Positions 6,788 through 15,091 of a stretch of 33,729 nucleotides of DNA are shown here, piece after piece (within the stretch, counting starts at the first letter, position 1; each line of letters starts with the position of its first letter). A model generated the notes under the pieces. It worked only from the letters and a program-made list of their open reading frames with translations. It did no database searches and was not told the DNA's origin. The translations under genes and the position numbers were made by a program. Source of the stretch: an uncultured bacterium (GTDB lineage Bacteria > Chloroflexota > Dehalococcoidia > SM23-28-2 > RBG-16-64-32); contig CBDURB010000001.1 in assembly GCA_965369585.1 (NCBI GenBank), forward strand, positions 1-33,729, read 5' to 3'.

Positions 6788-7191
6788 GCCGCCTAGACAT
6801 ACTGAAGGTGGGGCCCACAGCTCTCGTGACCGAGGAGTGTTGCGCCTGTGGCGTGACCTTCGCGCTCCCCGAGAGTCTACGGGACAACCTCTACGCCAAG
6901 AGACGGGGGGCGACCTTTTACTGTCCCAACGGGCACGGTCAGTCCTACACCGGTAAGCCTGATGCTGAGAAGCTAGCTGAGGCTGAACGCAGAAATCTTT
7001 CGCTTCGGCAGCAGTTGGACCAGGTCGAGGCGGACGCCGCTCGCAAGGGGAAGCAGTTGGCATCGCTCAGGAAGCGAGTGAAGAATGGCGTATGCCCTCG
7101 CTGCCGGCGCCACTTCATGAACGTCCAGCGCCACATATCCAACAAGCACCCGGACTTCGCCGCGTCGCAGTCGGGAGAAAAGGCGACATGA
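6784..7191 (+). CDS. zinc-finger / coiled-coil protein, function unknown
   Basis: ATG 6784 after AAAGGAGG. CCACG...CPNGH, then a coiled coil, then CPRCRRHF...HISNKHP. The C-terminus ...ASQSGEKAT is junction-cassette copy 1. Confidence 0.65.
   Translation: MSRLDILKVGPTALVTEECCACGVTFALPESLRDNLYAKRRGATFYCPNGHGQSYTGKPDAEKLAEAERRNLSLRQQLDQVEADAARKGKQLASLRKRVKNGVCPRCRRHFMNVQRHISNKHPDFAASQSGEKAT
7164..7187 (+). repeat. junction cassette copy 1: GTCGC-agtcgggagaaaag-GCGAC
   Basis: Both arms exact, N14 loop. Read as ...ASQSGEKAT* (tail of 6784..7191). GCGACATGA creates the ATGA overlap with start 7188. Confidence 0.8.
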
Positions 7192-7520
7192 CCTGCGGGA
7201 AAGAGACCTATCGGCAGGTCTGGCTTGTCCGCTGTAAGGAGCGCGAATGGACGGTTCCTGCTAGTTGTCAGATCGAGGCGTGGGACGCCACAGTGGGCCA
7301 GCTATCGGAAGATGAGCTTTTCGACGCTTTGGGATTGATAGTCAGGGCGAGACCTGTAGAGGCAGAGGAAGACAGTGATATAGCGGTTCATGCGGTCGGC
7401 CTCGCCATCCGTTATGGCCACGACAATTTGGCTATTGCCGCCGAGGCGGCAGGGCTGCGTATAGGGATGCCATCGGTGAGACAGATTTATGAGGACAGAG
7501 GCGATGACTGGATTCGCTAG
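7188..7520 (+). CDS. hypothetical protein
   Basis: ATGA overlap. Trimmed from the 7092 ORF to MTCGKETYRQ... Confidence 0.6.
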   Translation: MTCGKETYRQVWLVRCKEREWTVPASCQIEAWDATVGQLSEDELFDALGLIVRARPVEAEEDSDIAVHAVGLAIRYGHDNLAIAAEAAGLRIGMPSVRQIYEDRGDDWIR

Positions 7521-7554
7521 CCCTGCGTCGCTCTCCACGGGAAAGGCGACGTAG
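7504..7554 (+). other. candidate relay mini-ORF MTGFASPASLSTGKAT*
   Basis: ATG 7504 lies in the +1 frame inside the end of 7188..7520. It reads through cassette copy 2 and stops at TAG 7552-7554, 2 nt before ATG 7557. Confidence 0.25.
7527..7550 (+). repeat. junction cassette copy 2: GTCGC-tctccacgggaaag-GCGAC
   Basis: Both arms exact, N14 loop. Intergenic, 6 nt upstream of ATG 7557. Confidence 0.8.
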
Positions 7555-7556
7555 CG

Positions 7557-8003
7557 ATGCAGATCATCTCGGCCTACGCCCCACCGACGTTCACGAAACC
7601 GGTGTTCGTGTGGGTATCCTGCCAGTGCGACGACACATGTGTAGAGGTCAACGGAGACATGGCCGAGGGGGCGCATATGATCGGCTGCTTCATCGACGCC
7701 CTGAATGTCGATCACGCGATGGAGACCGCTGGCTATGCCGTTAGTGAAGCACACGGCTCCGGCCACTGGTTCGAGATCGGGCGCTTCCCGAGCTGGTACG
7801 CCGCGATCGAGGTTCATCTCGCCATGGTGAAGGACATGCAGAACGGACGGGGGCAGGAGGCTTGGGAGGCTGGTTACGATCCGTACCTCAAGTTCTACAG
7901 CCAGTTCAAGGACGCTCCGGCCTACGACACCGTGGAGGATCGTGACCGCTTGAAGGCTGCGGCATCGCAGAAGACAGGAAAGGCGACGCGAGATGAAGGA
8001 TAG
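7557..8003 (+). CDS. hypothetical protein
   Basis: 148-aa ORF. The tail ...AASQKTGKATRDEG* contains cassette copy 3. Confidence 0.65.
   Translation: MQIISAYAPPTFTKPVFVWVSCQCDDTCVEVNGDMAEGAHMIGCFIDALNVDHAMETAGYAVSEAHGSGHWFEIGRFPSWYAAIEVHLAMVKDMQNGRGQEAWEAGYDPYLKFYSQFKDAPAYDTVEDRDRLKAAASQKTGKATRDEG
7964..7987 (+). repeat. junction cassette copy 3: ATCGC-agaagacaggaaag-GCGAC
   Basis: One mismatch in the 5' arm, N14 loop. 5 nt upstream of ATG 7993. Confidence 0.7.
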
Positions 8004-8181
8004 GGTCTATATCGGATTTGTTGACGGCAAGCCCCTCCGTGAGCCATACGACCCGTATGGCGTGAGGATGATACCAGTGTTCACTTCGCGGCGAGCCGCC
8101 CGTAAGTGCTTTCAGGATGTGCGAACCTTCATCCTCGTTGCGGAGAAGTCGCAGAAGGACAGAAAGGCGACAGGAGGATAG
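7993..8181 (+). CDS. hypothetical small protein
   Basis: 62 aa, 11-nt overlap with the upstream gene. The tail ...KSQKDRKATGG* contains cassette copy 4. Confidence 0.55.
   Translation: MKDRVYIGFVDGKPLREPYDPYGVRMIPVFTSRRAARKCFQDVRTFILVAEKSQKDRKATGG
8148..8171 (+). repeat. junction cassette copy 4: GTCGC-agaaggacagaaag-GCGAC
   Basis: Both arms exact, N14 loop. Followed by AGGAGG and ATG 8184. Confidence 0.8.
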
Positions 8182-8183
8182 AT

Positions 8184-13133: not shown

Positions 13134-14152
13134 GCGACAAGAGCGCCATCGAGTGGACCGACGCTACCTGGAACCCCGTGACGGGCTGCACGAAGGTCAG
13201 CCCCGGCTGCGCCAACTGCTACATCGAGAGGACGCCGGCGTTCCGCATGACGGGCCAGCGGTTCGAGCGTGGCCGCATCCCCGTCCGGCTGCACCACGAT
13301 CGCCTGGACCAACCCCTTCACTGGCGGGAGCCGCGGCGGGTGTTCGTGGTGTCGATGGGGGATCTGTTCCACGAGGACGTGCCGGACGAGTTCATTGACC
13401 AGGTGTTCGCGGTGATGGCGATATCCCCTCAGCACACGTATCAGGTTCTCACGAAGCGCCCGGAGCGTATGCGGGCCTACATAGCCGCAGGGGAGCGCCC
13501 CGTTCGTTTCCATGATGGCTCACTCAGCCCCAGGCCCGCGAGTACTGCGACGAAGGTTCTCTGGGCTGCTCAGAACGACGGGCACGCGCTCTACAGTGAC
13601 GATATGGAATGGCCGCTCCCGAACGTGTGGCTCGGCGTCTCGGTGGAGAACCAGCGCATGGCCGACGAGCGCATACCGCTGCTGCTGGAGACGCCCGCCG
13701 CCGTGCGGTTTCTGTCCTGCGAGCCGCTGCTGGGGCCGCTGGACCTTGCTCGGTACATGACGCCAAAGCGCGAGCTAGACCGATATGAGGCGGAGGCCGT
13801 CAGCGCCTATGGCGGCAATCCGGCGTGGGGGCGATGGTGGGAACCACCCCTCGACTGGGTGATCGTGGGCGGCGAGAGCGGGCCAGGGCGGGCCGAGCGG
13901 AAGCTGGTGGAGCGGAACACTGATGCTGCTGGCGTTGACGCTAATCAGGCACCGCGTCATCTACCGGTATTGTGGGAACCCAAGTACGAAGCCTTGATGT
14001 GGCTGCGCTCCATCCGCGACCAGTGCCAGGCGGCGGGGGTGCCGTTCTTCTTCAAGCAGTGGGGCGGCCCCAGGCCCACGTCCGGCGGGCGGCTGCTGGA
14101 CGGCCGCGAGTGGAACGAGATGCCGCTACAGCGATCGGCGGTGCTGGCGTGA
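13130..14152 (+). CDS. phage Gp37/Gp68 family protein (DUF5131)
   Basis: Trimmed to ATG 13130. [31 protein letters not shown] is the hallmark N-terminus, and ...[10 protein letters not shown]... FFFKQWGG is the hallmark C-terminus. Confidence 0.8.
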   Translation: [340 protein letters not shown]

Positions 14153-14484
14153 AGGCGCGCGATCTCCGGCTGCGCGTCACGGAGGAGGATTACCAGCAGC
14201 AGATCGTTGACCTGGCGGGGTTCTACCGCTGGGACCATCGCTACCACACGCACGATAGCCGGCGAAGCGCCGCTGGCTTCCCCGACTTGGTGATGATCCA
14301 CGTCCGCAGCAAGCGGATTATCTTCACAGAAATAAAGGCGATGAAGGGGGAGCTCTCGCTTGATCAGCGGGAATGGTTGTGGGATCTTGCGACGGCCGGC
14401 GCCGAGGTCTACGTGTTCGATCCGGCCAACTGGAATCTGGTCGTAGACGTTCTGAGTGGAACCCATAGGAGCCCCAGCACATGA
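14149..14484 (+). CDS. VRR-NUC domain nuclease
   Basis: GTGA overlap. ...GFPDLVMIH...IFTEIKAMKGELSLDQREW gives the D...ExK...Q motif set of VRR-NUC. Confidence 0.75.
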   Translation: MKARDLRLRVTEEDYQQQIVDLAGFYRWDHRYHTHDSRRSAAGFPDLVMIHVRSKRIIFTEIKAMKGELSLDQREWLWDLATAGAEVYVFDPANWNLVVDVLSGTHRSPST

Positions 14485-14798
14485 GCGATGTAGCAAAGGA
14501 CATCCTGCAACACGTCGAGGACAACAAGGAGGAAATCGAGCGGCAGCTATCGCGTGACGGCCTAGAGGTGACGATCTCAACGAACCTCGGCAGTAGTGGA
14601 AGGAGAGCCCGCGTGAAGAACACCCGCACGACCCTGGATAGCATCAAGGTGAAGCCCGACGAGAAGGGGCCAGTCACCACCATCACCCTCAGGGCCCGCC
14701 TGTCCCGAGAGGAGCTAGCCGATCTCTACGACTTCCTACTGCTAGAGGACGGCGCCCTGGACGTGACCCTCGAGAGCAAGCAAGCGGCCTTCGCGTAG
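14481..14798 (+). CDS. hypothetical protein
   Basis: ATGA overlap. 105-aa acidic protein. Confidence 0.6.
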   Translation: MSDVAKDILQHVEDNKEEIERQLSRDGLEVTISTNLGSSGRRARVKNTRTTLDSIKVKPDEKGPVTTITLRARLSREELADLYDFLLLEDGALDVTLESKQAAFA

Positions 14799-14803
14799 CG
14801 CCA

Positions 14804-14959
14804 ATGGCCCGCAACGAGCGCTGGTTCGAGATGAACTGGTACGACGGCCACAACCGCAAGCCCGGGAAGCGCCGCAAGAGGTGGCGCCACCGGTTTATAC
14901 GCAGGTTTCAACGCTCTCAACGAAGGAGGTCCGCACAGCTCCAACTGATCCCGGCCTAG
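14804..14959 (+). CDS. small highly basic protein (51 aa)
   Basis: Not in the ORF track (<60 aa). MARNERWFEMNWYDGHNRKPGKRRKRWRHRFIRRF..., with near-uniform G/C third positions in the first ~30 codons. Confidence 0.4.
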   Translation: MARNERWFEMNWYDGHNRKPGKRRKRWRHRFIRRFQRSQRRRSAQLQLIPA

Positions 14960-15067
14960 CGCCGGACACATGCTGGCCCGCCTCGCCCGGATTTTGCTCC
15001 AGCACCTTACCGGGTGGGCGGGTCGGCTCCCGCACCGCTGTCGGCGCCGGCGGCGGAACAGAATAGC

Positions 15068-15091
15068 ATCGCCTTTCGGGACATAGGCGAC
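15068..15091 (+). repeat. junction cassette copy 12 (decayed): ATCGC-ctttcgggacatag-GCGAC
   Basis: N14 spacing is kept, but AAAG has become ATAG, creating an in-frame TAG. Upstream of the strong SD of gene 15116. Confidence 0.5.

What the first reader, a model, noticed from the sequence alone, without database searches (positions are those of the whole stretch)
7164..15091. Repeated ~24-nt junction cassette (GTCGC-N14-GCGAC, loop ending AAAG) at 12-13 cistron boundaries, always in the same translated frame
Copies lie at 7164, 7527, 7964, 8148, 8674, 9092 (degenerate), 9484 (N17), 9862, 10392, 11054, 12372, 13097 and 15068. All are on the plus strand and all lie within about 30 nt of a stop/start junction. 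None is seen in the structural or glycosylation genes.

Both arms are exact in five copies. The other full copies have a single arm mismatch, apart from the degenerate copy at 9092, whose 3' arm matches 3/5. The 14-nt spacing is kept in 12 of 13. The 3' end of the loop is (G/C)A(A/C)AAG, which doubles as an SD-like GAAAGG. By rough reasoning (not computed), a pattern with 10 specified bases should occur well under once by chance in 34 kb.

The most striking property is that the same frame, xxG-TCG-Cxx...AAG-GCG-ACx (S...K-A-T), is the translated one in every intact copy:
- As a C-terminal tail of the upstream protein: ...ASQSGEKAT*, ...ASQKTGKATRDEG*, ...KSQKDRKATGG*, ...ESKAT*.
- As the N-terminus of the downstream protein: MSQTAQKAT.., MSSPTPTKAT.., MTSQTSAKAR.., (M)KTSPCHATAMGK...
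- As a free-standing mini-ORF: MSPSMQKAMP*, MSPSRTTAMGPR*, MDTKAT*, ..ASLSTGKAT*.

The idealised element, TA-ATG-TCG-CAG-N9-AAG-GCG-ACA-TGA, carries its own start overlapping an upstream TAA and its own stop overlapping the next ATG.

Possible roles are (a) an RNA operator or hairpin presenting the SD, acting as a translational-repressor or reinitiation element comparable in concept to T4 RegA operators or the start-associated sequences of Cluster K mycobacteriophages; (b) asymmetric DNA sites for a phage repressor, like stoperators; (c) linker sequences promoting modular recombination at gene boundaries. I know of no described element with this sequence.
Basis: partly seen in the sequence, partly recalled or inferred. 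Interest (0 to 1): 0.8.

Follow-up and report, generated by a model that had tools for sequence, protein, structure and literature searches.

The report
Translated gene-junction linker repeat in phage
A 24-base, nearly palindromic sequence sits exactly at 13 of 18 gene boundaries in one long early operon of an uncultured phage and at boundaries in a few related phages; it marks the places where these phages have swapped, gained or lost genes, and its molecular function is still unproven.

Summary
The repeat is real. GTCGC-N14-GCGAC occurs exactly 4 times against 0.11 expected. A matrix built only from copies in other contigs recovers the 12 N14 copies in the window and nothing else (shuffles average 0.135).

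Copies occupy 13 of the 18 gene junctions between 6784 and 15116. None lies elsewhere in the window.

- Copies 12372, 13097 and 15068 are inverted.
- The arms show no compensatory change, so a hairpin is unsupported.

The conserved parts are sequence: (G/T/A)TCG(C/G) and AAAGGCGA(C/T).

The element is eight codons read in one frame. It appears as a C-terminal tail, as an N-terminal head, or as a tiny relay ORF. Its left edge lies one base after the upstream stop, or its right edge lies 0-12 bases before the next start.

The same element occurs at junctions in other metagenomic phage contigs (L201, L193, L202, L261), next to different genes. Homology blocks between genomes end inside it. Three gene families are polymorphic for the eight codons.

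Best reading: a translated junction adaptor that keeps neighbouring genes translationally coupled and serves as the crossover point for gene shuffling. A binding site for an unknown factor is not excluded. It is a new variant of a known kind (compare SAS/ESAS and PeSL).

The parts
7164..7187 (+). Copy 1, GTCGCAGTCGGGAGAAAAGGCGAC. It forms the C-terminal tail of gene 6784-7191 (..ASQSGEKAT*). The right edge is followed directly by ATGA, the start of gene 7188-7520.
   Evidence: 26.8 bits
7527..7550 (+). Copy 2, GTCGCTCTCCACGGGAAAGGCGAC. It is intergenic, beginning 7 nt after the TAG at 7518-7520 and ending 6 nt before the ATG at 7557. It is untranslated.
   Evidence: 29.4 bits; an orthologous copy lies upstream of the same gene in L193
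7964..7987 (+). Copy 3, ATCGCAGAAGACAGGAAAGGCGAC. It forms the C-terminal tail of gene 7557-8003 (..ASQKTGKATRDEG*). The next start is the ATG at 7993.
   Evidence: 29.6 bits; orthologous copies in L124, L193 and, decayed, in L128, L123 and L121
8148..8171 (+). Copy 4, GTCGCAGAAGGACAGAAAGGCGAC. It forms the C-terminal tail of gene 7993-8181 (..KSQKDRKATGG*). It is followed by a separate AGGAGG and the ATG at 8184.
   Evidence: 24.0 bits
8674..8697 (+). Copy 5, GTCGGCAATGGATACAAAGGCGAC. It begins 1 nt after the TAA at 8670-8672. An internal ATG at 8681 opens the small ORF MDTKAT*, whose TAA overlaps the ATG at 8701 of the ASCH gene.
   Evidence: 25.0 bits
9092..9115 (+). Copy 6, degenerate: TTCGCAGACCTCGGCAAAGGCCAG. 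It forms the N-terminal head of the 50-aa zinc-ribbon gene 9087-9239 (MTSQTSAKAR..) and begins 1 nt after the TGA at 9088-9090.
   Evidence: 15.7 bits
9484..9510 (+). Copy 7, the N17 variant: GTCGCCCATGACAGAATCGAAGGCGAC. It forms the C-terminal tail of the DUF4031 gene 9236-9514 (..SPMTESKAT*). The right edge is followed by ATGA.
9686..9695 (+). Right half only: GGAGGCGAC followed by ATGA, at the junction between genes 9511-9699 and 9696-9860. There is no left arm.
   Evidence: the same half-form is common in L121 and L123
9862..9885 (+). Copy 8, TTCGCCTACCCCCACAAAGGCGAC. It forms the N-terminal head of gene 9857-10390 (MSSPTPTKAT..) and begins 1 nt after the TGA at 9858-9860.
   Evidence: 26.4 bits; homologues occur with and without the eight codons
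10392..10415 (+). Copy 9, GTCGCAGACCGCACAAAAGGCGAC. It forms the N-terminal head of the C5 DNA methylase gene 10390-11052 (MSQTAQKAT..), with a TAATG stop/start overlap.
   Evidence: 28.1 bits
11054..11077 (+). Copy 10, GTCGCCCTCCATGCAAAAGGCGAT. It is a free-standing relay ORF at 11052-11084 (MSPSMQKAMP*), with TAATG at its left end and GTGA at its right end, the latter being the start of the N6_N4 methylase gene at 11081.
   Evidence: 26.6 bits; the same methylase is preceded by other loop types in L201 and L124
12372..12395 (-). Copy 11, inverted. The plus strand reads GTCGCCTTGTCATGCAACTGCGAT and the reverse complement reads ATCGCAGTTGCATGACAAGGCGAC. It lies 4 nt after the TGA at 12365-12367 and overlaps the ATG at 12394 of the R2K ATP-grasp gene.
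   Evidence: 19.7 reversed, 4.6 forward; 17.9 bits on the minus strand; the same inverted subtype occurs at L261 266
13097..13120 (-). Copy 12, inverted. The plus strand reads GTCGCCTTCCCGTACAACTGCGAT. It lies within the relay ORF 13095-13133 (MSPSRTTAMGPR*), with TAATG at the left and ATGA at the right, the latter being the start of the DUF5131 gene at 13130.
   Evidence: 19.8 reversed, 11.8 forward; 19.0 bits on the minus strand
15068..15091 (-). Copy 13, inverted. The plus strand reads ATCGCCTTTCGGGACATAGGCGAC. It lies in the 156-nt spacer, ending 24 nt upstream of the GTG at 15116.
   Evidence: 22.9 reversed, 17.6 forward; 23.0 bits minus strand, 18.8 plus strand

Best explanation
The element is a portable, translated junction adaptor.

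It is 24 nt long (eight codons) and nearly palindromic, with consensus (G/T/A)TCG(C/G)-N10-AAAAGGCGA(C/T). It sits exactly between consecutive genes in the distal half of what looks like one ~15-kb early operon.

How it is placed:
- The left edge abuts the upstream stop as T(A/G)A-N-(G/T)TCG, often as TAATG or TGATG. That arrangement supplies an ATG overlapping the stop.
- The right edge is a purine tract, AAAGG, complementary to the 3' end of 16S rRNA. It is followed by the next start, as GCGAC-ATGA, GCGAT-GCC-GTGA, or GCG-ATG in frame.

How it is read. Because the unit is a multiple of three and always read in one frame, it can take three forms:
1. the last eight codons of the upstream protein;
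2. the first eight or nine codons of the downstream protein;
3. a free-standing relay ORF of 6-12 codons.
In all three forms ribosomes cross the junction without an untranslated gap. This is translational coupling, and it is inferred.

How it recombines. The element is the only sequence shared by otherwise unrelated neighbouring genes, and it is in the same frame everywhere. An exchange inside it between two copies yields intact genes. It therefore acts as the crossover point for insertion, deletion and replacement of accessory genes among related phages. The coincidence of breakpoints with the element is shown. The mechanism is inferred: short-homology recombination, possibly by the phage's own PD-(D/E)XK exonuclease and annealing-protein pair at 4125-5815.

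The three forms convert into one another by single substitutions or by recombination between copies. An example of the first is ATG to ACG at the right edge. An example of the second is head x tail giving a relay ORF.
For: Placement:
- The repeat is real and confined to junctions: 13 of 18 junctions between 6784 and 15116, and none elsewhere.
- In six copies the element begins exactly 1 nt after the upstream stop. In eight copies it ends 0-12 nt before a start.

Constraint is on nucleotides, not on the peptide:
- The Ala codon is GCG in 28 of 29 copies, although GCG is only 36% of Ala codons in the window.

The element is present in other contigs, next to other genes:
- L201 has 8 copies in 4.6 kb, and L202/203/204 have 3 each.
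- L193 has 3 copies at 3 junctions, and L261 has 3.
- L124 has 1 copy and L121 has 2.

Breakpoints coincide with the element:
- Window against L193: homology spans 7526-7987, exactly from the first base of one copy to the last base of the next.
- Window against L124: blocks 7539-7989 and 11069-11506 meet on a single copy at L124 10396-10421. The window therefore has 3.1 kb (genes 7993-11052) between two copies that are one hybrid copy in L124.
- Gene 7557-8003 keeps the element at its end, but is followed by four different genes in the window, L124, L193 and L128.
- The N6_N4 methylase is preceded by three different loop types with the same AAAGGCGAYgccGTG.
- Loop subtypes are shared between genomes but lie next to different genes.

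Presence or absence of the eight codons in three gene families:
- N-termini of homologues of 9857-10390: MSPSMQKATG.., MSETAQKATG.. against MSEPTTAEML.
- C-termini of homologues of 7557-8003.
- N-termini of R2K homologues: MSSQTRTKATD.. against MQSVKRNPNS...

Conversion between forms:
- L196 has its ATG start where the window has the ACG (Thr) of K-A-T.

Other support:
- The SD-like duplex of the copies that precede a start is -4.7 to -9.0 kcal/mol, within the range of the window's other genes.
- One strong promoter-like site (2092-2119, 11 of 12 positions) and one convincing terminator-like site (17100-17120) bracket the region.
- The exonuclease has a PHROG hit at 5.6e-30 and a PD-(D/E)XK Pfam hit.
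Against: - Phage mosaic joints fall at gene boundaries anyway, so part of the coincidence between breakpoints and the element is expected even if the element plays no causal role. I have few genome pairs and no permutation test against junctions that lack the element.
- The shared identity is short (4-5 nt on the left, 9-11 nt on the right), which is little for homologous recombination.
- 'Evolvability' is a weak selective force. It does not by itself explain why AAAGGCGA is nearly invariant, or why the element is dense in some genomes (window, L201, L193, L261, L202) yet absent or decayed in related ones (L196, L199, L121, L123). That pattern suggests dependence on a factor that only some genomes carry.
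- The four inverted copies would be harmful as recombination partners.
- Nothing here measures translation.
- The annealing-protein assignment of 4850-5815 is weak (PHROG E = 1e-4).
Confidence: 0.45

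Rival explanations
1. The element is a recognition site for a trans-acting factor found only in this lineage. 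The factor would be a phage protein, or possibly an RNA, that binds the mRNA or the DNA at each junction. It would set the level or timing of expression of the accessory early genes. This is the same idea proposed, and never tested, for the SAS/ESAS sites of Cluster K mycobacteriophages. Recombination at the sites would then be a side effect.
For: - Conservation is of sequence, not of pairing.
- The element has an imperfect dyad with one strong half (AAAGGCGAC) and one weak half (TCGC), as in many sites bound by protein dimers. It works in either orientation with respect to position: copy 13097 keeps the TAA-T-GTCGC spacing although it is inverted.
- The element is dense in some genomes and absent or decayed in close relatives. 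L196 shares an 83-85% identical homologue of gene 9857-10390 but has no copy, and the arms have decayed in L121, L123 and L128.
- The window encodes several small DNA-binding or zinc-finger proteins of unknown target: an HTH_3 protein at 2127-2345, a DnaA_C HTH protein at 5812-6141, a winged-helix protein at 16325-16570, and the products of 6784-7191 and 9087-9239.
- The distribution resembles that of SAS: non-structural genes only, mostly one orientation, next to starts (PMC3203893).
Against: - No candidate factor could be tied to the element. The contigs rich in copies are too short to test co-occurrence.
- There is no copy near the early promoter.
- A binding site alone does not explain the fixed reading frame, the exact eight-codon length, or the three interconvertible forms.
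- For an RNA target, the inverted copies would present the complementary sequence.
Confidence: 0.25
2. The element is an RNA hairpin, with a GUCGC/GCGAC stem and a 14-nt loop carrying AAAG. The hairpin would present or mask the ribosome-binding region. Translation of the downstream gene would then depend on ribosomes finishing the upstream gene, which is structure-based coupling.
For: - The five-pair hairpin is the predicted minimum-energy fold in about 10 of 13 copies, at -6 to -18 kcal/mol. Five copies have z-scores of -2.6 or lower (7527, 8148, 8674 and 15068) or close to it.
- The stem closes right at the start codon in several copies.
- A hairpin would be independent of orientation.
Against: - There is no covariation in 33 copies. 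Paired cells are 80.8% against 81.7% in shuffles, and the score is 0.052 against 0.054.
- The outer pair is broken in 12 of 33 copies and the inner pair in 6 of 33, never with compensation. A-C mismatches are as common as G-U pairs.
- Most copies fold no better than shuffled sequence.
- AAAG is in the loop, so the SD is not masked.
- In nine or more copies the element lies downstream of the start.
Confidence: 0.08
3. The element is the crossover site of a dedicated site-specific recombinase. The early operon would then be an integron-like array of promoterless gene cassettes, each bounded by a 24-bp site with imperfect dyad symmetry.
For: - In form it resembles recombinase core sites. Two inverted arms, one strong and one weak, flank a variable centre, with a total of 24 bp (compare the 26-bp invertase sites and the 28-bp dif site, from general knowledge).
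- Copies are almost all in direct orientation in an array of small accessory genes expressed from one upstream promoter.
- L124 has a hybrid copy where the window has two copies 3.1 kb apart.
- The eight codons are cleanly present or absent.
Against: - No recombinase domain was found in any window ORF tested. The integrases seen in L124 and L196 are ordinary prophage integrases, and L196 has no copy.
- In the L124 hybrid, the exchange point lies at or after the right arm, not in the central region (and the alignment).
- The arms are much shorter than those of known core sites.
- The window may be an incomplete genome, so absence of a recombinase is not proof.
Confidence: 0.08
4. The element is a selfish or neutral mini-insertion with no function. 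It would be comparable to the in-frame palindromic elements of Rickettsia, or to REP or MITE remnants, tolerated only at protein termini.
For: - It is palindromic, it is exactly eight codons long, and it is present or absent at protein termini in three gene families.
- It encodes a harmless hydrophilic peptide.
- It occurs in either orientation.
Against: - There are no target-site duplications, and no associated transposase or RAYT gene.
- 24 nt is far shorter than any known mobile element.
- Orientation is strongly biased, about 29 forward to 4 inverted.
- Its register relative to stop and start codons is exact.
- AAAGGCGA is nearly invariant across genomes whose proteins are only 60-85% identical.
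Confidence: 0.07

Closest known systems
[quoted passage not shown] 2011, PMC3203893; survey of 188 genomes, PMC12699233)
   Same: - Both are short repeats present 10-20 times per genome.
- Both are restricted to the non-structural half of the genome.
- Both lie within a few bases of start codons and contain a Shine-Dalgarno-like core.
- Both are nearly all in one orientation, with rare inverted copies.
- Both are associated with genes of different families in different genomes.
- In both, part of the element is an imperfect inverted repeat without compensatory changes.
- In both, the function is still unverified.
   Different: - The sequence is unrelated. The SAS consensus GGGATAGGAGCCC has one match with 2 mismatches in the window against 1.4 expected by chance.
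- SAS is 13 bp and asymmetric, and ESAS has 17-bp repeats with a 4-13 bp spacer. Here the arms are 5-6 bp with a fixed 14-nt centre.
- SAS lies upstream of starts. This element is as often translated, as a protein tail, a protein head or a relay ORF in one fixed frame, and it is registered to the upstream stop.
- No role at mosaic joints was reported for SAS.
PeSL cassettes (promoter-early stem-loops) of T4-type phages (Arbiol et al. 2010, PMC2839356; PMC4122927)
   Same: - Both are composite cassettes at gene boundaries. A PeSL runs from the upstream stop to the downstream SD and start.
- Both are concentrated in the hyperplastic regions full of small accessory genes.
- In both, recombination between copies accounts for insertions, deletions and replacements between related phages.
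   Different: - PeSLs are about 50-70 bp and intergenic. They carry a sigma-70 promoter and a terminator hairpin, so each gene is its own transcription unit.
- This element is 24 nt, has no promoter or terminator features, lies inside one long operon, and is translated.
- PeSL mini-circles were shown experimentally. Nothing comparable is available here.
Stoperators of Cluster A mycobacteriophages (13-bp asymmetric repressor sites; from general knowledge and as cited in PMC3203893)
   Same: Many copies are spread through an operon at gene boundaries, with biased orientation.
   Different: - The consensus is absent: 1 match with 2 mismatches against 1.9 expected.
- There is no copy at the early promoter.
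- No repressor link was found.
- Stoperators are not dyad-symmetric and are not registered to reading frames.
Integron attC sites and gene cassettes (from general knowledge)
   Same: - Both involve an array of promoterless small genes in one orientation, expressed from one upstream promoter.
- In both, each gene is bounded by an imperfect inverted repeat with a variable centre.
- In both, gene content varies between relatives at those sites.
   Different: - attC sites are 57-141 bp, have RYYYAAC/GTTRRRY cores and need an IntI integrase next to the array.
- None of these features is present here. The sites here are translated.

Membership tests
SAS (Cluster K start-associated sequence) | Match to GGGATAGGAGCCC with at most 2 mismatches, in 10-19 copies | tested here: not met
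   One match (16652, 2 mismatches) against 1.42 expected by chance. Definition taken from PMC3203893 and PMC12699233.
SAS (Cluster K start-associated sequence) | Located 3-7 bp upstream of the start codon of the downstream gene | tested here: inconclusive
   Eight of 13 copies end 0-12 nt before a start. Three lie downstream of the start, and the last (15068) ends 24 nt before the start at 15116.
SAS (Cluster K start-associated sequence) | Restricted to non-structural genes; one predominant orientation | tested here: met
   All copies lie in 7164-15091. The window has 10 forward and 3 inverted copies; with relatives the totals are about 29 and 4.
ESAS (extended SAS) | Pair of imperfect 17-bp inverted repeats with a 4-13 bp spacer, immediately upstream of an SAS | tested here: not met
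   Arms are 5-6 bp with a fixed 14-nt centre. There is no SAS.
PeSL (T4-type promoter-early stem-loop) | Sigma-70 promoter consensus inside the repeat | tested here: not met
   None of the five promoter-like sites in 1800-17800 overlaps a copy.
PeSL (T4-type promoter-early stem-loop) | Stable stem-loop acting as a terminator or attenuator | tested here: not met
   The stem has only five pairs with a 14-nt loop and no T tract. No terminator-like site falls at any copy.
PeSL (T4-type promoter-early stem-loop) | Differences in gene content between related phages have their end points in the repeat | tested here: met
   Comparisons with L193, L124, L128 and L201.
Stoperator (Cluster A) | 13-bp consensus GGTGGMTGTCAAG, also present at the early promoter, bound by the phage repressor | tested here: not met
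   One match with 2 mismatches against 1.9 expected. There is no element copy near 2092-2119. Binding cannot be tested with these tools.
Integron attC / gene cassette | Site of 57-141 bp with RYYYAAC and GTTRRRY cores, and an adjacent IntI tyrosine recombinase | tested here: not met
   The element is 24 nt with GTCGC/GCGAC cores. No recombinase domain was found in the window ORFs scanned. The window may be incomplete.
Structured RNA element (any hairpin-based operator) | Base pairs maintained by compensatory changes | tested here: not met
   In 33 copies, paired cells are 80.8% against a shuffle mean of 81.7%, and the covariation score is 0.052 against 0.054. There is no Rfam match.
Shine-Dalgarno / translation-initiation region | Complementarity to the 3' end of 16S rRNA at a workable distance from a start codon | tested here: inconclusive
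   Duplexes of -4.7 to -9.0 kcal/mol at 0-7 nt from the start for the copies that precede a start. This does not apply to copies downstream of the start or to inverted copies. The host 16S sequence is inferred from the perfect AGAAAGGAGGTGATC at 15093-15107.
REP / MITE-like mobile palindromes | Target-site duplication, long stem, and an associated transposase (RAYT or other) | tested here: not met
   No duplications in the flanks, a short stem, and no transposase domain.

The most novel reading that the evidence does not exclude
The 24-bp imperfect dyad is the crossover site of a recombination system not yet identified. That could be a dedicated recombinase or the phage's own exonuclease and annealing pair with a sequence preference. 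The system would move single genes in and out of the early operon as in-frame cassettes. This would be a phage counterpart of an integron, in which the recombination site is itself translated and doubles as the signal for translational coupling.
Probability: 0.1. Interest if true: 0.9.

Novelty: new variant of a known kind. Interest (0 to 1): 0.62.

Why it matters
Two classical explanations exist for why the joints of phage mosaic genomes fall at gene boundaries. One is random illegitimate recombination followed by selection. The other is recombination at short conserved linker sequences.

This lineage offers an unusually clean case for the second explanation. One 24-nt unit is present at most junctions of the accessory-gene operon. 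It is shared by unrelated genes, it is always in one reading frame, and it is found at the end points of gene-content differences between genomes.

If the adaptor works as proposed, it shows how a phage can keep dozens of small genes translationally coupled in one operon and still exchange them one at a time without breaking reading frames.

It also gives a second, independent example alongside the unexplained SAS/ESAS sites of Cluster K phages. That makes the long-open question of what such start-associated repeats do easier to test.

A practical point for annotation: the element creates short relay ORFs and eight-residue head and tail extensions that gene callers will treat inconsistently.

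Tried and rejected
Searches that led nowhere:
- Rfam at gathering thresholds gave no match, and no tRNA genes were found.
- There is no close phage in the INPHARED collection, only a 61-bp hit.
- The IMG/VR scan for GTCGC-N10-AAAGGCGAC gave only single-copy chance hits.
- The IMG/VR scan for TRATGTCGS-N10-AAAGGCGA also gave no arrays.
- The 18-mer ACAGGAAAGGCGACATGA in IMG/VR and in GTDB genomes gave only chance hits.
- Searches based on gene 7557-8003 gave 2, 0 and 1 loci in metagenome, genome and viral contigs respectively.
- The 62 loci found through the N6_N4 methylase contain no arrays apart from the LCGC14 contig.

Considered and rejected:
- A 24-mer recurring in AT-rich IMG/VR contigs (GTCGCCTATCTCTCGAAAGGCGAC) resembles copy 15068. 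It belongs to one family of near-identical unrelated low-GC contigs and is a coincidence.
- A cyanobacterial HIP1 link: GCGATCGC occurs only once.
- A peptide-level function, such as a terminal tag that might serve as substrate for the neighbouring R2K ATP-grasp enzyme. Codons are fixed at the nucleotide level (GCG in 28 of 29 copies against 36% usage). Untranslated and inverted copies exist, and the inverted copies encode a different peptide.
- An operator for the Cro-like or other immunity functions: there is no copy near the early promoter.
- A promoter for the phage sigma-like protein: the layout does not fit a -35/-10 arrangement. This rests on reasoning only.

No host could be identified.

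Full report
**1. What is in the window**

The window is 64% G+C. From about 2100 onward, nearly all genes are on the plus strand. My gene map comes from Pfam and PHROG scans:
- A Cro-type HTH gene (2127-2345) lies just downstream of the only strong sigma-70-like promoter match (TTGACA-N16-CATAAT, 2092-2119).
- A PD-(D/E)XK exonuclease (4125-4901) is followed by a weak Bet-like annealing protein (4850-5815) and a DnaA_C-type HTH protein (5812-6141).
- A run of 19 small genes spans 6784 to 15334. It includes ASCH, DUF4031, a C5 methylase, an N6_N4 methylase, an R2K ATP-grasp protein, DUF5131 and VRR-NUC.
- A convincing terminator-like hairpin lies at 17100-17120.
- A sigma-70 region-2 protein, a ParB-methylase, the large terminase, a portal/MuF protein and glycosyltransferase genes follow.

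The repeat therefore lies in the distal half of what looks like one ~15-kb early operon. The promoter and terminator are consensus matches only, so the operon is an inference. There are no tRNA genes, no Rfam matches, and no close relative among cultured phages. One early protein (6784-7191) has ~40% identical homologues in Gordonia, Microbacterium and Mycobacterium abscessus phages. The host is unknown.

**2. Checking the observation**

The statistics are strong:
- Exact GTCGC-N14-GCGAC occurs 4 times against 0.11 expected.
- With one mismatch or fewer there are 15 matches against 4.05 expected.
- AAGGCGAY occurs 18 times against 2.2 expected.
- A weight matrix built only from 17 copies found in other contigs recovers exactly the 12 N14 copies in the window at 14 bits or more, and nothing else. 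Shuffles average 0.135 hits.

In my gene model the copies occupy 13 of the 18 junctions between 6784 and 15116. A right half alone (GGAGGCGAC-ATGA) sits at a fourteenth junction. No copy lies inside a gene body or outside 7164-15091.

**3.

*Strand.* The arms are a palindrome, so they cannot assign a strand. The asymmetric part is the right half, AAAGGCGAC, against the left half, (G/A/T)TCGC(AG or C). Copies 12372, 13097 and 15068 carry GTCGCCTT on the plus strand, which is the complement of AAGGCGAC.
- With a matrix from the nine forward copies alone, they score 19.7, 19.8 and 22.9 in reverse against 4.6, 11.8 and 17.6 forward.
- Loop-only scores point the same way.
- The independent matrix agrees.
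- The same inverted subtype (..CAACTGCGA) occurs in another contig, at L261 266.

So there are ten forward and three inverted copies in the window.

*Hairpin.* On 33 copies from the window and seven other contigs:
- Pairs form in 80.8% of cells against 81.7% after shuffling.
- The covariation score is 0.052 against 0.054.
- The outer pair is broken in 12 of 33 copies and the fifth pair in 6 of 33, never with compensation.
- Predicted folds are mostly no better than shuffled sequence.

What is conserved is sequence: T2, C3, G4, and A16 through A23.

**4. Anatomy**

The element is 24 nt, or eight codons. Its position is exact:
- In six window copies it begins one base after the last base of the upstream stop (TAA-T-GTCGC, TAA-C-GTCGG, TGA-C-TTCGC, TGA-G-TTCGC).
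- In eight copies it ends 0-12 nt before a start.

It occurs in three forms, all in the frame xxG-TCG-C..AAG-GCG-ACx:
- As a tail of the upstream protein (7164, 7964, 8148, 9484).
- As a head of the downstream protein (9092, 9862, 10392).
- As a free relay ORF whose start overlaps the upstream stop and whose stop overlaps the next start (11054 MSPSMQKAMP*; 13097 MSPSRTTAMGPR*; 8674 MDTKAT*).

Copies 7527 and 15068 are untranslated.

The constraint is on nucleotides. The Ala codon is GCG in 28 of 29 copies, against 36% usage in the window. AAAGG pairs with the extreme 3' end of 16S rRNA. For copies that precede a start, the duplex energy is -4.7 to -9.0 kcal/mol, ordinary for this genome. That role is impossible for copies lying downstream of their start.

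**5. Relatives**

Homologues of gene 7557-8003 and of gene 9857-10390 led to a handful of metagenomic contigs.

| Contig | Source | Length | Copies |
|---|---|---|---|
| L201 | Logan SRR31655978 | 4.6 kb | 8 |
| L193 | SDBV01233567.1 | 1.6 kb | 3, at its three junctions |
| L202/203/204 | JGI and Logan | 1.7-2.5 kb | 3 each |
| L261 | ENA ERZ27271168 | 0.9 kb | 3 |
| L124 | marine sediment LCGC14 | 20 kb of a 46-kb contig | 1 |
| L121, L123 | JGI; Logan | 11.8 kb; 16.8 kb | 2 weaker copies each, plus many right-half-only junctions such as ACAGGAAAGGCGAC-ATGA and CTGGAGGCGCA-ATGA |

Others have none, among them L196, L199 and L200, although L196 carries an 83-85% identical homologue of gene 9857-10390.

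Pattern scans of IMG/VR and of GTDB genomes found no further arrays. The lineage is rare in public data.

**6. The element marks mosaic joints**

(a) Window against L193. Nucleotide homology runs from 7526 to 7987, from the first base of one copy to the last base of the next. Beyond the second copy, L193 continues with the homologue of window gene 9236 (DUF4031), not 7993.

(b) Window against L124. Blocks 7539-7989 and 11069-11506 meet on a single copy in L124 (ATCGCAGACGACAGGAAAGGCGAC-gcc-GTG). The window therefore has 3.1 kb, nine genes, between two copies that correspond to one hybrid copy in L124.

(c) In L128 the same gene lies between the annealing-protein gene and the homologue of 5812-6141, again with a decayed copy at its end.

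(d) The N6_N4 methylase is preceded by three different loop types in the window, L201 and L124. All three share the right arm and the following gccGTG.

(e) Loop subtypes recur between genomes next to different genes. For example, CCATGCAAAAG lies upstream of the methylase in the window, at the head of the 9857-homologue in L201, and downstream of that homologue in L202. GGGAGAAAAG lies at the tails of unrelated genes in the window and in L193.

(f) Three gene families are polymorphic for the eight codons:
- Homologues of 9857-10390 start either MSPSMQKATG.., MSETAQKATG.., MTQTMQKATG.., or MSEPTTAEML.. The closest homologues lack the element while more distant ones have it.
- Homologues of 7557-8003 end with SQKTGKAT, SQKRGKAK, GKAT, or nothing.
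- R2K homologues start MSSQTRTKATD.. or MQSVKRNPNS...

(g) L196 has its ATG exactly where the window has the ACG of K-A-T. One substitution, together with an upstream in-frame ATG, therefore turns a copy lying before the start into a protein head.

**7. Interpretation**

The best-supported reading is a translated junction adaptor.
- It is placed so that ribosomes pass from one gene to the next without a gap. The left side has a stop/start overlap. The right side has an SD-like tract and a stop/start overlap.
- It has the same frame everywhere, so an exchange inside it between any two copies produces intact genes.
- This accounts for the junction-only location, the eight-codon length, the single frame and the three interconvertible forms. 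A head copy recombining with a downstream tail copy leaves a relay ORF.
- It also accounts for the bias toward direct orientation, because inverted partners would give inversions.
- It accounts for the breakpoints as well.

The phage's own exonuclease and putative annealing protein are plausible agents, but that step is inference.

*Weaknesses:*
- Mosaic joints fall at gene boundaries in any case.
- I have few genome pairs and no test against element-free junctions.
- The shared identity is short.
- The model does not by itself explain the near-invariance of AAAGGCGA, or the genome-by-genome presence or absence.

The last point is why a lineage-specific binding factor, the unproven idea for SAS/ESAS, remains the main rival. 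I could not link any gene to the element. A dedicated recombinase is not seen in the window, but the contig may be incomplete.

**8. Comparison with known systems**

- The closest in kind are the SAS/ESAS sites of Cluster K mycobacteriophages (PMC3203893; function still unverified in 2025, PMC12699233). They share the distribution, the SD-like core, the orientation bias and the lack of compensatory change. They differ in sequence, size and architecture, and they are not reported as translated or as recombination joints.
- PeSL cassettes of T4-type phages (PMC2839356) are the closest in behaviour, being boundary cassettes that mediate modular shuffling. They are promoter-terminator units, which this element is not.
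- Membership of the stoperator, attC, REP/MITE and structured-RNA classes was tested and not met.
- I recall 'linker sequences' proposed for lambdoid phages (HK620 work, from memory). I could not retrieve that paper.

**9. Verdict**

This is a real, statistically robust repeat family, conserved within its lineage. Of the three proposed roles, the recombination-linker role gains direct support, the SD role is plausible for a subset, and the repressor-site role has none. It is a new variant of a known kind of phage element, interesting mainly for its in-frame, three-form design and its tight association with gene shuffling.

Noticed in passing
window 15093-15107 (and 15067-15077): AGAAAGGAGGTGATC upstream of the GTG at 15116 is a perfect 15-nt complement of a bacterial 16S rRNA 3' end (duplex -27 kcal/mol), far stronger than any other ribosome-binding site in the window. 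The strong half of the inverted copy 13 (CATCGCCTTTC) is 82% complementary to it, so it could mask this site.
   Followed up: partly
window 2092-2345: The only near-consensus sigma-70 promoter match (TTGACA-N16-CATAAT, 11 of 12 positions) lies directly upstream of a Cro/HTH_3-type gene (2127-2345). Across the upstream spacer, facing the other way, are minus-strand genes that include a CAP-domain protein (1278-2045) and, further left, an OmpR-type winged-helix protein (396-833). This looks like the immunity/early switch of a temperate phage.
   Followed up: partly
window 17100-17597: A clean intrinsic-terminator-like hairpin (GGCCCGC-TATGA-CGGCGGGCC followed by TTTTCC) lies immediately before a gene with a sigma-70 region-2 domain (17133-17597). 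That gene precedes the ParB-methylase and packaging genes, and is a likely early/late boundary with a phage-encoded sigma factor.
   Followed up: no
window 10390-12367, 17602-19332: The window carries three DNA methyltransferases: a C5 enzyme, an N6_N4 enzyme and a ParB-fused enzyme. A RAMA-domain protein (18910-19332) lies nearby. This is an unusually heavy load of DNA-modification genes. Related contigs add Dam and MT-A70 enzymes.
   Followed up: no
window 9857-10390: This 177-aa protein has no Pfam domain, but it has more than 500 homologues (E <= 1e-3) in metagenomes and MAGs, with strongly conserved motifs (WAFF, AYE.K..R.DF, KRR.ALRYSN.FWF, APWRD.P.PTW). It is an uncharacterised, widespread phage and prophage family.
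   Followed up: partly
L009, L011, L016, L029, L056, L090, L097 and others (IMG/VR): A set of near-identical AT-rich viral contigs shares the 24-mer GTCGCCTATCTCTCGAAAGGCGAC, inside what looks like coding sequence. It resembles the reverse of window copy 15068, but the flanks and composition are unrelated, so I judged it a coincidence.
   Followed up: partly
window 14962-15056: The 156-nt spacer before copy 13 is the longest non-coding gap in the operon. It holds several G+C-rich imperfect inverted repeats, for example 14972-14982 with 15017-15027, and a palindrome at 15035-15056. Their role is unknown.
   Followed up: no
L121 7723-8094 and 9460-9990; L129 3186-3578: Related contigs that have few or decayed copies of the element carry HNH endonuclease genes among the same small early genes. 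The window has none in this region.
   Followed up: no
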